Shown here piece by piece: positions 12,620-53,174 of a DNA stretch of 64,000 nucleotides. Origin of the DNA: Octopus vulgaris (taxonomy: Eukaryota); contig OX597819.1 of NCBI GenBank assembly GCA_951406725.2, positions 98,580,001-98,644,000 of the forward strand, read 5' to 3'. Below the pieces are notes generated by a model, which did no database searches, was not told the origin of the DNA, and worked only from the letters and a program-made list of their open reading frames with translations. A program made the translations under genes and the position numbers. Positions within the stretch are counted from its first letter, which is position 1. Each line of letters begins with the position of its first letter.

Positions 12620-12880
12620 TTAGAATTATCATCAATGAAAATAAAATAAATTACAACAGCTACAAAATGTATGTAAATTGTCAACAGAAGGTGGCGAATT
12701 ATAAAACAGAATAATTCAACGACGTTAATTACATTTTAAACATCAAAGCAGGATGGTGTATAGGTGACGCAAGCGTTATATAGAGCAAAAACTGACGTAT
12801 ATACAAAAGCTTTGTGATTAACAACGAGCCTGCTTGAATATCACGGTGATTACTTTTTCAAAGTATTTACACCCGTGAGC
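12620..12880 (+). promoter_or_regulatory. Copy 1 of a dispersed AT-rich block (candidate SLC6 promoter); internally deleted, lacks the donor-bearing segment
   Basis: Collinear with 34250-34620, e.g. 'gattaacaacgagcctgc(t/c)tgaatatcacggtgatt' and 'tttcaaagtattta'. The promoter role is inference. Confidence 0.4.
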
Positions 12881-13020
12881 CCCCACCACACACAAATACA
12901 TAATATATAGATATATTCATATATATGTACATCTATACATATATGTATATAAGACACACACACGCATATATATATATATATATATATATATATATATATA
13001 TATCTTATTATGTATATATA

Positions 13021-13300
13021 TATAATCAAAATAAGTAACAAGAATGACTACGGTAATTTGGTACGATCATTTCGTACGACATCGTACCAAATTACCGGAG
13101 TCATTCTTGTTGCTTATTTGATTATAATCCCAGATTTTTATGGATAACTCCATACAGAATTCTTGCATCTAAATTAAGTACCACATTCATTTGAATCTAA
13201 ATTTTTGCTGAACATATATATATATATATATATATATATATATATATATATAATTAATATATATATATCTAATATATAAGTACCATATTCATTTGAATCT
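13021..13300. repeat. Truncated PLE-derived element with a ~47-bp-arm hairpin (13021-13126); longer relative at 32868-33240
   Basis: tataatcaaaataagtaacaagaatgactacggtaatttggtacgat / atcgtaccaaattaccggagtcattcttgttgcttatttgattata; shares both ends with 32868-33240; lies in (TA)n. Confidence 0.75.
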
Positions 13301-13350
13301 ATAATATTTTATATATATATATATATATATATATATATATATATATATAT

Positions 13351-13635
13351 GCTGAGACCCCCTTCGGTTATGACTGACCACGGGATTGCACCTAGAAAGT
13401 TACCTTCCCAGGCACAAGTCCAGACAAGGTTGTGTATGGAAGACCAGCGGTCGCCCATGCATACCAGCCTCCCCTCTCCACGCCACTGATGTTATCCAAG
13501 GGTAAAGCAACGACCGGTACAGCTTGGCAACTCATTTCTACAGCTAAGTGAACTGGAGCAACGTGAAATAAATTGTCTTGCTCAAGATCACAACACGCAA
13601 CCCGGTCCGGGATTCGAACTCACAACCTTACAATC
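13351..13635 (-). mobile_element. tRNA-derived SINE (CORE-like domain), related to 59035-59360
   Basis: Shares 'cagct(a/g)agtg(a/g)actggagcaacgtgaaataaa..gtcttgctcaa ... cgaactcacaacctta' with 59232-59315. Confidence 0.7.
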
Positions 13636-49265: not shown

Positions 49266-49269
49266 AAGT

Positions 49270-51600
49270 GGTAAATATCCAAACGAGGTGTATACTGTAG
49301 GCTACTCTTCATGCCAAGGATACCTTGATTAAATGAAAGTTTATATTGTCGCAAGGAGGTATATGTTAACACATCGAAGATTCAATCAGAATGTGTAGAG
49401 AGCCCAGCAGGAATGGAGAATATAAATGTAGGGAAATTAGGGTTAAAAGAAGAAATAAGAAAAAAATATAAGGGTGTGAGAAGAAAGAGGAAGCAAGGAC
49501 ATTTGACCGGTAGTATTAAATAGGGTTGTTTTGGTCGAATCACAGAAATTAACAAGGGGAGTGGTATTTGAAAAAAAAGATAATGTGGAGGGAAGAGGGT
49601 GGGGAAATATTTTTGGTCAAGGGGGAGAAAAAAGTAAGCATGAAAAAAGCAAGATAGAATAGGCAAGAATCGTGGCTGCTACAACTAACTATCAATTAAG
49701 GAGTGTATATTGTGTGCGGTGAGCATGTTTGCAGTATGAAGTAGTAGAAGTGTATCTTGGTGTTAAGATTAGCATTTGTTAGAGAGTTGAGAGTGGAGCT
49801 GTGGGATTGTATAATATGATAATTATCGTGCCCGGTGGTATCGTCTGTGTCGTTCTCTATTTTTACAAGGAGCATAGTTGGGCGTCGTGGTAAATTTACG
49901 GATCGGATGTTAATAGTGGAATTATAGTTGGAATTATGAAGGTTAGTGTTGTTAGAAGGGTCAGTTGGTGTTTGGGTTTATATGTATGGATCTGTGGGTA
50001 AGAGGGGGTAAGAGGGGGAGGCAGGTGAAATAAGAGAAACATTTTTTATAAATGGGAAGAAAAGATACAGAAAGAAGTATGTAAATGACAATAAGGAATT
50101 AAAGAGATATATTGTTGGTTTAATATATAGTGGTAGTGAGGGTAAATAAAAGGGATAATATAAGAAGGTTAAGGGAAAAAGGCGGGCTGGGGTTGTTTTA
50201 TTTGTATTTTGAGAAAAGATTTAGTAATCGATGTTTGCAGGTAAAGATTATACTGCTGCGTTCATTATGTATGGTTTGGTGTGGGGGACTATGGACCACT
50301 TGAGGGTGTAAGGAGTTGAATCAATCTTTAGATTATTGATTAGCTGAGATAACGATGTACTGTTGGATTGTGTTTAGGACTTGTAACTGGAATAGTGGTT
50401 GCTCACTCTAACTTTGAAGGTGGTGCTGCATGAGCCGATATATATGTAGTTACAATTGTCAGTTGATACTGTACACTTGTAAACGATGTTTTTTGTGAGA
50501 CAGTGGTTATCTAAAGGACAGGAGACTGGACGTCTGAAGTTGCATAGGTTTGTAGGGGATATTCCAGATGAACTTGTGAGGGGATTGTTGTTTAGTGAGG
50601 AACCGGTGTTAGGTTCGTTATTATTGCTGGTGTTAAGATTAGTATTTGTTAGAGAGTTGAGAGTGGAGTTGTGGGATTGTATAATATGATAATTATCGTG
50701 CCCGGTGGTATCGTCTGTGTCGTTCTCTATTTTTACAAGGAGCATAGTTGGGCGTCGTGGTAAATTTACGGATCGGATGTTAATAGTGGAATTATAGTTG
50801 GAATTATGAGGGTTAGTGTTGTTAGGAGGGCCAGTTGGTGTTTTGAGTTTATATGTATGGTTCTGGGGGTTATGATGATGTTAAATTATTAGGATGGGGG
50901 TTAGCTGGTTGTGGTTTTTTGAGTTTCTTTTTAAGATGTCGGGTAACTCCGGCGATGTTGGAGGTGGTGGAGTAGAACAATTTTATAGACTGAGAGTTAG
51001 ATTTTTTCTAAGGGGGCTAGATTTAGGAAGATGTTTTTCGAATAGGGCGAAGAAGGGTTTAGGTACTCGAATTTGAACATTAAGGGCGAAGGGAGCGGGG
51101 TGGTGGTGGTGGAACTAGATAACATCCCGAATTCTTGTTCGTTTAATCCGAGTAAGTGTGTGTGCGTGAAGAGGTTAACTGGGTGGGGACAGTGTTTTAG
51201 AGGTGCACGCTGGTGTCTGTTTCGATGAGTTGCGATGTATATAAGATTTGGAGTAATCTAGCTGGAGGGTTGTTTGTTAAATCATGTGTTACTCTGAAAT
51301 CTGGACGGATATTGCAGTGATAGGATAAGGGGATGTTACGTCCATTATATGGTGGTGGTAGGGGGAATATTCTATATGGGGATATATTCGATTGAGTTTT
51401 TATAGCCGGCAGGTTGTAGGGCAGAATTGTAATACTCTGCATATTGATCGAATAAATTCCTATTAGCAGATAGTGAGGAAATCCGGTAGGAAACGCTTTC
51501 TACAAAAGATTTCAGGATGAAGGTGGTGGCGGCTGAAGGAGAAGTTCACGTAGTTGAGGTTTTCTCCAAGTTTGTGGTATGGGTAGAAGGTTTGGTTTTG
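49270..51600 (-). mobile_element. Degenerate PLE (Naiad-type) with internal direct repeat (~49770-49990 = ~50640-50860)
   Basis: 'PYHKLGENLNYVNF' (RT C-terminus) and 'CPLDNHCLTKNIVYKCTVSTDNCNYIYIGSCSTTFKVRVSNHYSSY' (GIY-YIG). Confidence 0.85.
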
Positions 51601-51742
51601 CAAACACACACAAACATTTCTATACGAATGTGTATTTGTATACACACACACACACACACACACATGTACACACACACACACACACACACACACACACACA
51701 CACACACACATATATATATGTATATATACAGACATATATATA

Positions 51743-53007
51743 CAGACATGCAGGAAGTAAATAGACACCTTTAACTTTCAAAATTTCTGATCTAAGCGTT
51801 TCAATATGTTTTCAGCGGTGTGGAATTTACAATGTAATTATTCTTTTTCATTCCAGGTGTCATTATATTAAACATTTGCGAAGAGTAACCATGCCATGCA
51901 CAAAGATAATTCAGCAGAACTGTCAGATTTTCAAAGGTCGTATGGTTGGGCAATTTGCGTATTAAATAAAAGTGAAAAATTGCCGGAAATCTTCAAATTC
52001 CTCTTGCTACTGTTAATATAATTATAGTGCAATAGTCAAGGAAAAGAATCAACAGATTCTCATCCTGGCCGACCTGGGCCCTCAGAAAGGAAGCTTCGCT
52101 GTTTGAAGAGAATTGCGGAAAGCTAACCCCGTTCGATGGCTTCTGATATTGCAAAACAGCTAGGAGTTAGTCCAAGAACGTGTGTTACATATCTGCATAA
52201 GCTTGGGTATTATGGACGATCAGCTAGAAGAAAACCTCTCCTTCAACCAATTAATATCATGAAAAGAAAGAAATGGGCTAAGGAGATGTCAGAAAAATCC
52301 AGTTCATTTTGGAATAGAGTGATTTTCTCAGATGAATCCAGATTTGCATTATTTTCAAACAGTGGACGTGTTTGGGTCTGGAGGCTTTCCAATCAAGAAT
52401 TTGATTTGAAACGACTCCAACCAACTTTGAAACATGGCGGTATCTCTGTAATGCTATGGGGAGCTGTCACCAGCAATGGTCGTTCCGAGCTGATAGAATG
52501 TGTTGGAACCATAAACTCTGTAAAATACATCGAAATACTTAAGCAAGGATTACTGCCGATATATTCACACGATAACATAACGAAAATGGGTTTATATTCA
52601 TGAAAAATGGGGCTCCATGCCACACAGCGAAAAAGAATCAACAATGGCTGACTGAAAATGGAATCAAAAAGCTTCCTTGGCTGAGCCAATCTCCCGGCAT
52701 GAACCCAATTGAAAATCTTTGGAGCATACTAGGTAGAGCTATACGAAAATCTCGTCAGAAACCTAAATCTTAAGATGAATTGTTTCGATTGTTGCTTGAA
52801 AAGTGGGCAGAAATTTCACAAAAGACAATCACAAATCTCATCAGTTCAATGCCAAAAAGAGTTTCTGAATTAAAAACTGCAAAGGGAATGTCAACTAAAT
52901 ACTAAAGTATGTAATCCTACCTATCGATTACATTTCAATTGTTTGCTTTGCGTATTAAATAAAAGATTATGAAAATTAAAGGCGTCTATTTACTTCTTGC
53001 ATATCTG
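51743..53007 (+). mobile_element. Tc1-family DNA transposon (~1.27 kb) with disrupted transposase
   Basis: TIRs cagacatgcaggaagtaaatagacacctttaactttca / tgaaaattaaaggcgtctatttacttcttgcatatctg; left TA; 'ARRKPLL', 'VIFSDESRF', 'KHGG.SVMLWG', 'NGAPCHT', 'SPGMNPIENLW'. Confidence 0.92.
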
Positions 53008-53174
53008 TGTATATATATATACGTGTGTGTGTATTTATGTGCGCGCGTGCGTATGTGCGTATATGTGTGGAAATCTGAACAAGTAGAAGTATTCGATGGT
53101 GATCCACCTTTTTCTTATATGTACAAGTTACAGTTATACTTGCAGATATCATCATCATTCTCATCGATATCATT

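What the first reader, a model, noticed from the sequence alone, without database searches (positions are those of the whole stretch)
12620..53146. Array of paralogous candidate promoters and non-coding first exons upstream of a single SLC6 coding acceptor
Seen: an AT-rich 250-400-bp block recurs in the same orientation at ~12620, 34250, 37230, 37420 and 46305. It is visibly diverged and has no TIR, tail or TSD. Three copies end in a donor at a homologous position (G|GTAAGT 34593, G|GTAAGC 37723, AG|GTATAA 46650); copy 1 has that segment deleted. Some copies contain TATAAAAG/TATAAAT. The first coding exon of gene 2 starts with a splice acceptor (53146) before its ATG, so it probably needs an upstream exon. 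Inference: duplicated alternative promoters splice to a common coding region (variable-first-exon logic as in UGT1A or clustered protocadherins, but non-coding), allowing tissue-specific expression. Alternatively they are promoters orphaned by paralog loss.
Basis: partly seen in the sequence, partly recalled or inferred. Interest (0 to 1): 0.8.

Follow-up and report, generated by a model that had tools for sequence, protein, structure and literature searches.

The report
Duplicated octopus transporter leader exons
Five related non-coding DNA blocks upstream of an octopus SLC6 transporter gene are local duplicates of this gene family's untranslated leader exon and likely promoter; one of them is spliced onto the gene in transcript contigs, and the others are likely leftovers of tandem duplication rather than a working set of alternative promoters.

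Summary
The blocks are real and are not a dispersed repeat. Ten copies lie in about 125 kb of one tandem cluster of three intact SLC6 (GlyT2-like) paralogs, A, B and C. Four genome searches found none elsewhere in 2.8 Gb.

Both enter at 53134, not 53146. So the block is a true untranslated upstream exon. It lies 15.4 kb from its acceptor and skips the nearer copy 4.

Paralog A is also spliced from an exon ending like the block; only 3 letters of it were seen.

No junction from copies 1, 2, 3a or 4 was seen. Copies 1 and 3a lack a donor. Copy 2 follows an orphan SLC6 terminal exon (33385-33495), and copies 1 and 3 recur colinearly between genes A and B. This points to overlapping tandem and partial duplications.

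An array of several active first exons stays possible (about 0.3), mainly through copy 2. It is not a protocadherin/UGT1A-type cluster, because the exons are non-coding.

The parts
320..10570 (+). Last six coding exons of SLC6 paralog B (320-432, 4294-4425, 6115-6214, 6550-6650, 6900-7070, 10457-10570). The gene starts outside the window (ATG at G000:C6:98564936) and is an intact 588-aa ORF.
   Evidence: tblastn; exon map and ORF check
12580..12868 (+). Copy 1: truncated block with the donor segment deleted, 2 kb downstream of gene B's stop. It is 98% identical to a copy at the same position after gene A (G000:C6:98542420-98542710).
32645..34202 (+). Orphan 3' end of an A/B-type SLC6 gene: last-intron remnant (32645-32859, about 85% to gene A), terminal exon 33385-33495 (acceptor and stop intact, one codon deleted) and 3' flank (94-97% to genes A and B). 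No other SLC6 exon was found between genes B and C.
34185..34612 (+). Copy 2: full-length block with a near-consensus donor (TTG|GTAAGT, intron from 34593) and TATATAGG at 34406. Use in RNA was not tested directly.
37213..37398 (+). Copy 3a: 5'-half tandem duplicate (79-81% to copy 3b), no donor.
37400..37742 (+). Copy 3b: the upstream untranslated exon of gene C. Letters 37692-37722 and 37657-37689 are seen spliced to 53134, through donors at 37723 (GTAAGC) and 37690 (GTTGGT). TATAAATT at 37532; a start near 37560 is predicted, not shown.
   Evidence: read laying loose ends mapped; TATA scan
38154..38590 (+). Intron-1 sequence of gene C with exactly one other match in the genome search, behind the copy-3 duplicate between genes A and B (G000:C6:98547393-98547855, 78%). 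It marks a duplication of gene C's 5' end.
46242..46668 (+). Copy 4: full-length, most diverged block with a weak donor (TAG|GTATAA, 46650). It lies inside the intron skipped by both observed copy-3b junctions.
53134..53298 (+). First coding exon of SLC6 paralog C. The acceptor used is at 53134 and the ATG at 53175; a second possible AG at 53144-53145 is not used in the two contigs. It is spliced on to the exon at 58669.
58669..62711 (+). Coding exons 2-4 of gene C (58669-58800, 60293-60569, 62579-62711). The gene ends outside the window (last exon from G000:C6:98661270). It is an intact 588-aa ORF, 98.5% identical to the O. sinensis protein P0006.

Best explanation
The blocks are paralogous copies of the untranslated upstream exon, and likely the core promoter, of an octopus SLC6 subfamily, multiplied by local tandem and partial duplications; copy 3b is spliced to gene C's first coding exon, and the other four window copies are likely relics. 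SHOWN: homology of the blocks, confinement to the cluster, the two copy-3b junctions, the missing donors of copies 1 and 3a, the orphan terminal exon, and the colinear second set of blocks between genes A and B. INFERRED HISTORY: the A/B-type and C-type blocks split about when the A/B and C genes did. An older duplication (about 76-85% identity) copied the run [A/B-type last exon, copy 1/2, copy 3a+3b, start of C intron 1]. A younger one (about 90%) copied [promoter block, whole A/B gene, copy 1]. Most of one A/B-type gene was deleted, leaving the orphan exon. Patchy gene conversion likely explains the 96-98% islands. INFERRED FUNCTION: each paralog is transcribed mainly from one block, starting about 25-30 nt behind its TATA-like word, and the leader is non-coding.
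For: JUNCTIONS. laid 4 runs on 53070-53335; 2 of 4 (X2 and X9, different studies) held a gene-C contig crossing the acceptor. Their loose ends each match once, exactly, in the 464-kb region, both in copy 3b; the nearest paralog differs at 1 and 2 of 30 letters. Contigs of X2 and X9 also splice 53298 to 58669, so they are spliced transcripts. Paralog-A contigs in 3 of 4 runs show TCG joined to A's first coding exon, the ending of the only block upstream of A. DISTRIBUTION. Genome searches with copy 2, copy 4, copy 3b and A's block gave 5, 3, 6 and 4 matches from 5, 3, 4 and 3 candidates, all in C6:98.50-98.63 Mb. The same tool found 254-1808 candidates genome-wide for three neighbouring repeats, down to 70% identity. 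DUPLICATION MAP. Colinear offsets of 70-73 kb and 46-55 kb; orphan exon; two-copy intron piece. NO EXTRA CONSTRAINT. Block-to-block identity is 67-72% in local alignment, against 69-76% for three alignable non-coding pieces between A/B and C. In the block tree copy 2's branch (0.12) is about as long as that of donor-less copy 1 (0.14-0.15), and copy 4's is the longest of the C-side copies (0.32).
Against: The junction sample is tiny: two contigs at depth 3-4, tissues unknown, contigs rather than raw reads. Copy 2 keeps a near-consensus donor (score 9.7; 12 of 36 native donors score lower) and a TATA-like word after long divergence, while its sister copies 1 and 1', which are separated from gene C, lost the donor. 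The weak donor at 37690 (score 1.5) is used, so a low score does not exclude copy 4 (0.8). O. sinensis lists two accessions for one identical gene-C protein (XP_036359706.1 and XP_036359707.1), which fits untranslated-region variants of unknown kind. The three control pieces were picked because they align, so that control is biased upward. Promoter activity and the transcription start were not measured for any copy.
Confidence: 0.6

Rival explanations
1. Gene C has a working array of paralogous alternative promoters with non-coding first exons (copy 3b plus copy 2, perhaps copy 4), chosen by tissue or stage. Gene B would have a smaller array: its own block plus the captured duplicate of copy 3b.
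For: Copy 3b is used. Copy 2 and the copy-3b duplicate upstream of gene B keep GTAAGT donors scoring within the native range. TATA-like words sit 177-190 nt before the donor in copies 2, 3b, 4 and the duplicate. The C-side blocks form old lineages (61-72% column identity), and the copy 1/2 plus copy 3 arrangement predates the older duplication. O. sinensis has two accessions for one protein.
Against: Both observed gene-C junctions (2 of 2) come from copy 3b, and each contig runs unbranched through the acceptor. Two of five copies have no donor. There is no sign of extra constraint on copy 2 or 4. Keeping a 6-7-nt donor over about 0.2 substitutions per site is expected by chance in roughly a quarter to a third of cases (hand estimate from the tree).
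Confidence: 0.3
2. Copy 3b is an internal untranslated exon, reached by splicing from a more distal start such as copy 2 (34592>37650), so the blocks form a chain of leader exons rather than alternatives.
For: If its 7 unseen letters match, the X2 contig begins at 37650, directly after TACAG, a possible acceptor. Copy 2 has the strongest donor in the window.
Against: At depth 3 a contig end is arbitrary; the X9 contig begins at 37668. The AG at 37648-37649 is absent from the other copies. In gene A the loose part reaches 153 nt beyond the acceptor, which would end 25-30 nt behind the TATA-like column if it is all block sequence (letters beyond 30 not seen).
Confidence: 0.07
3. The block is a dispersed transposable element or generic repeat that happens to cluster here.
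For: It is AT-rich (21-33% GC) and lies in a repeat-dense genome; the search tool warns that no match does not prove rarity.
Against: Four genome searches returned only local copies, while three control repeats gave hundreds to thousands of candidates. All ten copies are on the sense strand of the SLC6 genes. No TIR or TSD was found. One copy is spliced into the mRNA.
Confidence: 0.03

Closest known systems
Arabis alpina PEP1 partial tandem duplication (PMC7927791, passage read)
   Same: A tandem duplication copies part of the promoter, the first exon and part of intron 1 in front of one gene body. Here the copy-3b duplicate also carries about 460 bp of intron 1.
   Different: At PEP1 both duplicated first exons are reported to give transcripts; here only one copy is shown in use. 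There are five old copies here rather than two, and the exon is non-coding (that PEP1 exon 1 is coding is recalled, not read).
Porcine CYP19 locus (PMC8067493, abstract and Discussion read)
   Same: Three tandem paralogs, one of them fed by distal untranslated exons.
   Different: There, several untranslated exons are shown in use by 5' RACE and RT-PCR with tissue differences, and the parts read do not describe them as paralogous to each other. Here the exons are paralogous and multiple use is unshown.
Variable-first-exon clusters: clustered protocadherins, UGT1A (features recalled; Zhang, Haws and Wu, Genome Res 14:79 seen only as a reference-list entry; promoter choice at PCDH-gamma read as a passage of PMC6339937)
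   Same: A tandem series of paralogous 5' modules in one orientation, upstream of a shared downstream acceptor.
   Different: The exons here add no protein sequence, only one is shown spliced, two lack donors, and the same block also heads separate complete paralogs.
SLC6 / SNF family (PF00209), annotated 'glycine transporter 2-like'
   Same: PF00209 matches exons of all three genes. The O. sinensis ortholog's best solved-structure hit is GlyT2 (E 1.4e-148).
   Different: GlyT1, the proline, betaine and taurine transporters score nearly as high (486-473 bits against 499), so the name is a nearest-neighbour label. Substrate and tissue are unknown.

Membership tests
Variable-first-exon cluster (protocadherin/UGT1A type; features recalled) | Tandem, same-strand series of paralogous 5' exons upstream of shared exons | tested here: met
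   Five copies, three with donors
Variable-first-exon cluster (protocadherin/UGT1A type; features recalled) | Two or more different first exons spliced to the same acceptor | tested here: inconclusive
Variable-first-exon cluster (protocadherin/UGT1A type; features recalled) | Variable exons encode alternative N-terminal protein domains | tested here: not met
   No in-frame open upstream ATG in any of 7 leaders tested, counted from the predicted start; the O. sinensis protein begins at the ATG matching 53175
Variable-first-exon cluster (protocadherin/UGT1A type; features recalled) | Each exon has its own promoter, with tissue- or cell-specific choice | not testable with these tools
   Needs CAGE, ATAC-seq or 5' RACE; only TATA-like words were seen
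Dispersed transposable element (MITE/SINE) | Many copies dispersed over the genome in both orientations | tested here: not met
   (local matches only) against controls; all ten copies on +
Dispersed transposable element (MITE/SINE) | Terminal inverted repeats, target-site duplication or tail | tested here: not met
   Longest end matches 5-7 nt in 4 copies; the alignment ends in intron-like sequence after the donor
Duplicated promoter plus untranslated first exon (PEP1-like partial duplication) | The duplicated unit contains a true 5' exon of the gene with its donor and flanking intron | tested here: met
   Copy 3b spliced to 53134; its duplicate carries the donor and the intron-1 piece
Duplicated promoter plus untranslated first exon (PEP1-like partial duplication) | The exon is the first one, with the transcription start inside the block | tested here: inconclusive
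   Contigs cannot show a start; loose lengths were 37 and 54 nt for gene C and up to 153 nt beyond the acceptor for gene A
SLC6 (PF00209) | SNF domain and full-length ORF | tested here: met
   (C6:98640283, E 6.3e-16); 588-aa ORFs for A, B and C
SLC6 (PF00209) | Glycine transport (the GlyT2 label) | not testable with these tools
   The name comes from source annotation and the nearest structure hit

The most novel reading that the evidence does not exclude
An octopus SLC6 gene is driven by an old array of paralogous promoters with purely non-coding first exons (copies 2, 3b and possibly 4), selected by tissue. A partial duplication also handed a copy of gene C's active leader exon to the neighbouring paralog B (promoter capture). 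This would be variable-first-exon logic that diversifies regulation rather than protein, in a cephalopod.
Probability: 0.3. Interest if true: 0.55.

Novelty: new member of a known kind. Interest (0 to 1): 0.35.

Why it matters
As it stands, the result fixes the 5' structure of one octopus transporter gene: a distal non-coding exon 15.4 kb upstream with two donors, and the acceptor at 53134. It is also a clear case of how promoter/leader modules pile up in a tandem gene cluster through partial duplication, loss and conversion. If copy 2, or the duplicate in front of gene B, proves active in other tissues, the locus becomes a natural experiment. Paralogous promoters of known ancestry would drive one coding sequence, and promoter capture between paralogs could be tested directly with existing RNA-seq.

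Tried and rejected
(1) No listed holder of window:52900-62000 was on record as RNA. The runs are marked 'RNA?' by guess; I treat them as transcripts only because their contigs cross canonical introns.

(2) laid 4 runs (X1, X2, X9, X11) on 45900-53950. The bin holding copy 4's exon and donor (46438-46706) had depth 0 in 4 of 4. This is contig data and no proof of silence, and X1 and X11 showed no listed piece on the gene-C exon either. The depth just upstream (45900-46437) is likely from a dispersed repeat at 45950-46220.

(3) X17 (another organism label) laid nothing on 53070-53335, and X6 held only paralog A. No paralog-B contig was seen in 4 of 4 runs. None of this is evidence of absence.

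(4) I first read a match between the DNA just upstream of gene B's block and gene C's 3' flank as the remnant of a lost C-like gene. Rejected: it is a dispersed repeat with 1808 candidates. Other A-B intergenic matches to C introns look like repeats too and were not used.

(5) The two LINE copies at 17269 and 39823 (80% identical, offset close to that of copies 1 and 2) were not used as duplication markers; independent insertion fits as well.

(6) The donor weight matrix from 36 cluster introns includes its own training set and scored a used donor at 1.5, so it cannot rule copies in or out.

(7) The nhmmer scan was built from the ten known copies and is circular for them. It only shows no eleventh copy in 464 kb (next best E 0.28).

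(8) Tandem Repeats Finder did not report copies 3a/3b as an array.

(9) The protein tree does not resolve the order of A, B and Argonauta (supports 32-63).

(10) Earlier scan findings near this place: none.

(11) Six literature searches listed no paper on this locus. Supplementary tables were not searched, and subscription papers are not held.
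Full report
SETTING. The window is G000:C6:98580001-98644000 of a 2.8-Gb genome. A protein labelled Octopus vulgaris (P0002) matches the gene ending in the window, and its longest contig has the same length as C6, so the species is inferred to be the common octopus. 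I fetched 200 kb on each side. The region holds three same-strand SLC6 paralogs: A (ATG at C6:98516405), B (ATG at 98564936, ending at window 10570) and C (ATG at window 53175). All are intact 588-aa ORFs with 13 coding exons; A and B are 92% identical and C is 75-78% identical to them. C is 98.5% identical to an O. sinensis 'glycine transporter 2-like' protein. That protein's best solved-structure hit is GlyT2, with other SLC6 members close behind.

OBSERVATION. The five blocks are present and homologous well beyond chance. Alignment scores were 57-123 against shuffle maxima of 19-21 over 200 shuffles each. Copy 1 has lost the donor segment, and copy 3a is only the 5' half. Five more copies lie upstream of the window: one before gene A (C6:98501310-98501730) and four between A and B, namely a copy-1 twin at 98% identity, twins of copies 3a and 3b, and B's own block at 93-97% identity to A's. 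Genome searches with four different copies found only these local copies. The same search returned 254, 1548 and 1808 candidates for three neighbouring repeats. The tool warns that it skips common words, so rarity is strongly indicated, not proven.

TRANSCRIPT EVIDENCE. Four runs were laid on 53070-53335. Two (X2 and X9, different studies, depth 3-4) held a gene-C contig across the acceptor. Both enter the exon at 53134. The loose end of X2 is 37657-37686 plus a shared CAG, an internal donor at 37690, 33 nt upstream. Each 30-mer has one exact match in 464 kb; the twin upstream of gene B differs at 1 and 2 letters. Contigs of these runs also splice on to exon 58669, so they are spliced transcripts although the runs are only guessed to be RNA. 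Gene C therefore uses copy 3b, 15.4 kb upstream, and copy 4 lies in the skipped intron. Paralog-A contigs in 3 of the 4 runs show TCG joined to A's first coding exon. That is the ending of the one block upstream of A, but only these 3 letters were seen. The longest loose part (153 nt beyond the acceptor) would reach to 25-30 nt behind the TATA-like column, a weak hint, since contigs cannot show a start. No leader adds in-frame protein sequence (7 tested).

HISTORY (inferred). An SLC6 terminal exon with no gene body sits at 33385-33495, with the end of its intron and a 3' flank 94-97% identical to those of A and B. Copy 2 begins where that match ends. Copy 1 and its twin likewise follow the terminal exons of B and A. 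The run [last exon of A, copy-1 twin, copy-3 twins, intron piece] is colinear with [orphan exon, copy 2, copies 3a and 3b, 38154-38590] at 70-73 kb offset and about 76-85% background identity; the intron piece has just these two matches in the genome search. A younger duplication at 46-55 kb offset and about 90% identity covers A against B, from the promoter block to beyond copy 1. Islands of 96-98% suggest gene conversion. The block tree puts the A/B block apart from the C-side lineages 1/2, 3 and 4. Block-to-block identity (67-72%) is no higher than that of three alignable non-coding pieces between A/B and C (69-76%, a biased control). Copy 2's branch is about as long as that of donor-less copy 1. 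So there is no sign of extra constraint on copies 2 and 4, but no proof that they are dead. One candidate remnant of a lost C-like gene was rejected as a repeat.

MECHANISM. Most likely (0.6): the block is this subfamily's core promoter plus non-coding first exon, each gene uses mainly one block, and the rest are relics of overlapping tandem and partial duplications with deletion of one A/B-type gene. Main rival (0.3): copy 2, perhaps copy 4, and the copy-3b twin in front of gene B are active alternatives. In its favour are the intact GTAAGT donors, the TATA-like words at 177-190 nt from the donors and two O. sinensis accessions for one protein. Against it, 2 of 2 junctions come from one copy. 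A chain of leader exons (0.07) and a dispersed repeat (0.03) are minor.

COMPARISON. It works like a duplicated promoter/first-exon module. At Arabis PEP1, a tandem duplication of promoter part, exon 1 and intron part gives two transcripts (PMC7927791, passage). It resembles porcine CYP19, with three paralogs and distal untranslated exons (PMC8067493, abstract and Discussion). It is not a member of the protocadherin/UGT1A class: the exons are non-coding, and multiple use is unshown (class features recalled; PCDH promoter choice from a passage of PMC6339937; Zhang, Haws and Wu seen only in the reference list of PMC8230824). The abstract of PMC6438578 argues from human and mouse data that minor starts are largely non-adaptive, so low-level use of an extra copy would not by itself show function. 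PMC9815951 (passages) discusses other octopus SLC6 genes, not these. Six searches listed nothing on this locus; supplements were not examined and could hold expression data for these genes.

VERDICT. Observation confirmed, with a corrected acceptor. Interpretation partly supported: one copy is a real untranslated exon, the array is unshown. New member of a known kind; interest 0.35.

Noticed in passing
window 33385-33495: The orphan terminal exon keeps an intact acceptor, frame and stop. It could serve as an alternative last exon for gene B, 23 kb upstream; not tested in RNA.
   Followed up: partly
G000:C6:98546950-98547300 (L022): Twin of gene C's used leader exon (96% identical over the exon, GTAAGT donor) lying about 18 kb upstream of gene B's first coding exon: a candidate captured promoter.
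   Followed up: partly
window 37583-37722: If transcription starts near 37560, an upstream ATG at 37583 opens a frame that stops inside the 33 nt between the two donors. With the short donor it instead runs out of frame over the main ATG, so the two leaders could differ in translation.
   Followed up: partly
window 14669-20346 and 39823-42795: Long LINE retrotransposon (weak zinc-knuckle match, endonuclease, RT, zf-RVT; in several frames) and a shorter, more broken relative at 80% identity inside gene C's first intron.
   Followed up: no
window 26427-29020: Second LINE family (endonuclease plus RT); its 3' 757 bp is 98% identical to a piece in gene A's first intron.
   Followed up: no
window 21173-23004 and 23416-25240: Near-identical 2.2-kb tandem duplication (99.6-99.8%): very recent or an assembly artefact.
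   Followed up: no
window 52127-52600 and 57162-57953: Tc1/Tc3-type transposase remnant, and a weak GIY-YIG match (below the Pfam cut-off) on the minus strand in an intron of gene C.
   Followed up: no
window 12872-12880: Donor-like CCC|GTGAGC just after the deletion in copy 1 and its twin; it scores poorly (-4.1).
   Followed up: partly
G000:C6:98564928 (L024): Gene B lacks about 13 nt at the acceptor of its first coding exon relative to gene A, leaving AAG instead of CAG.
   Followed up: no
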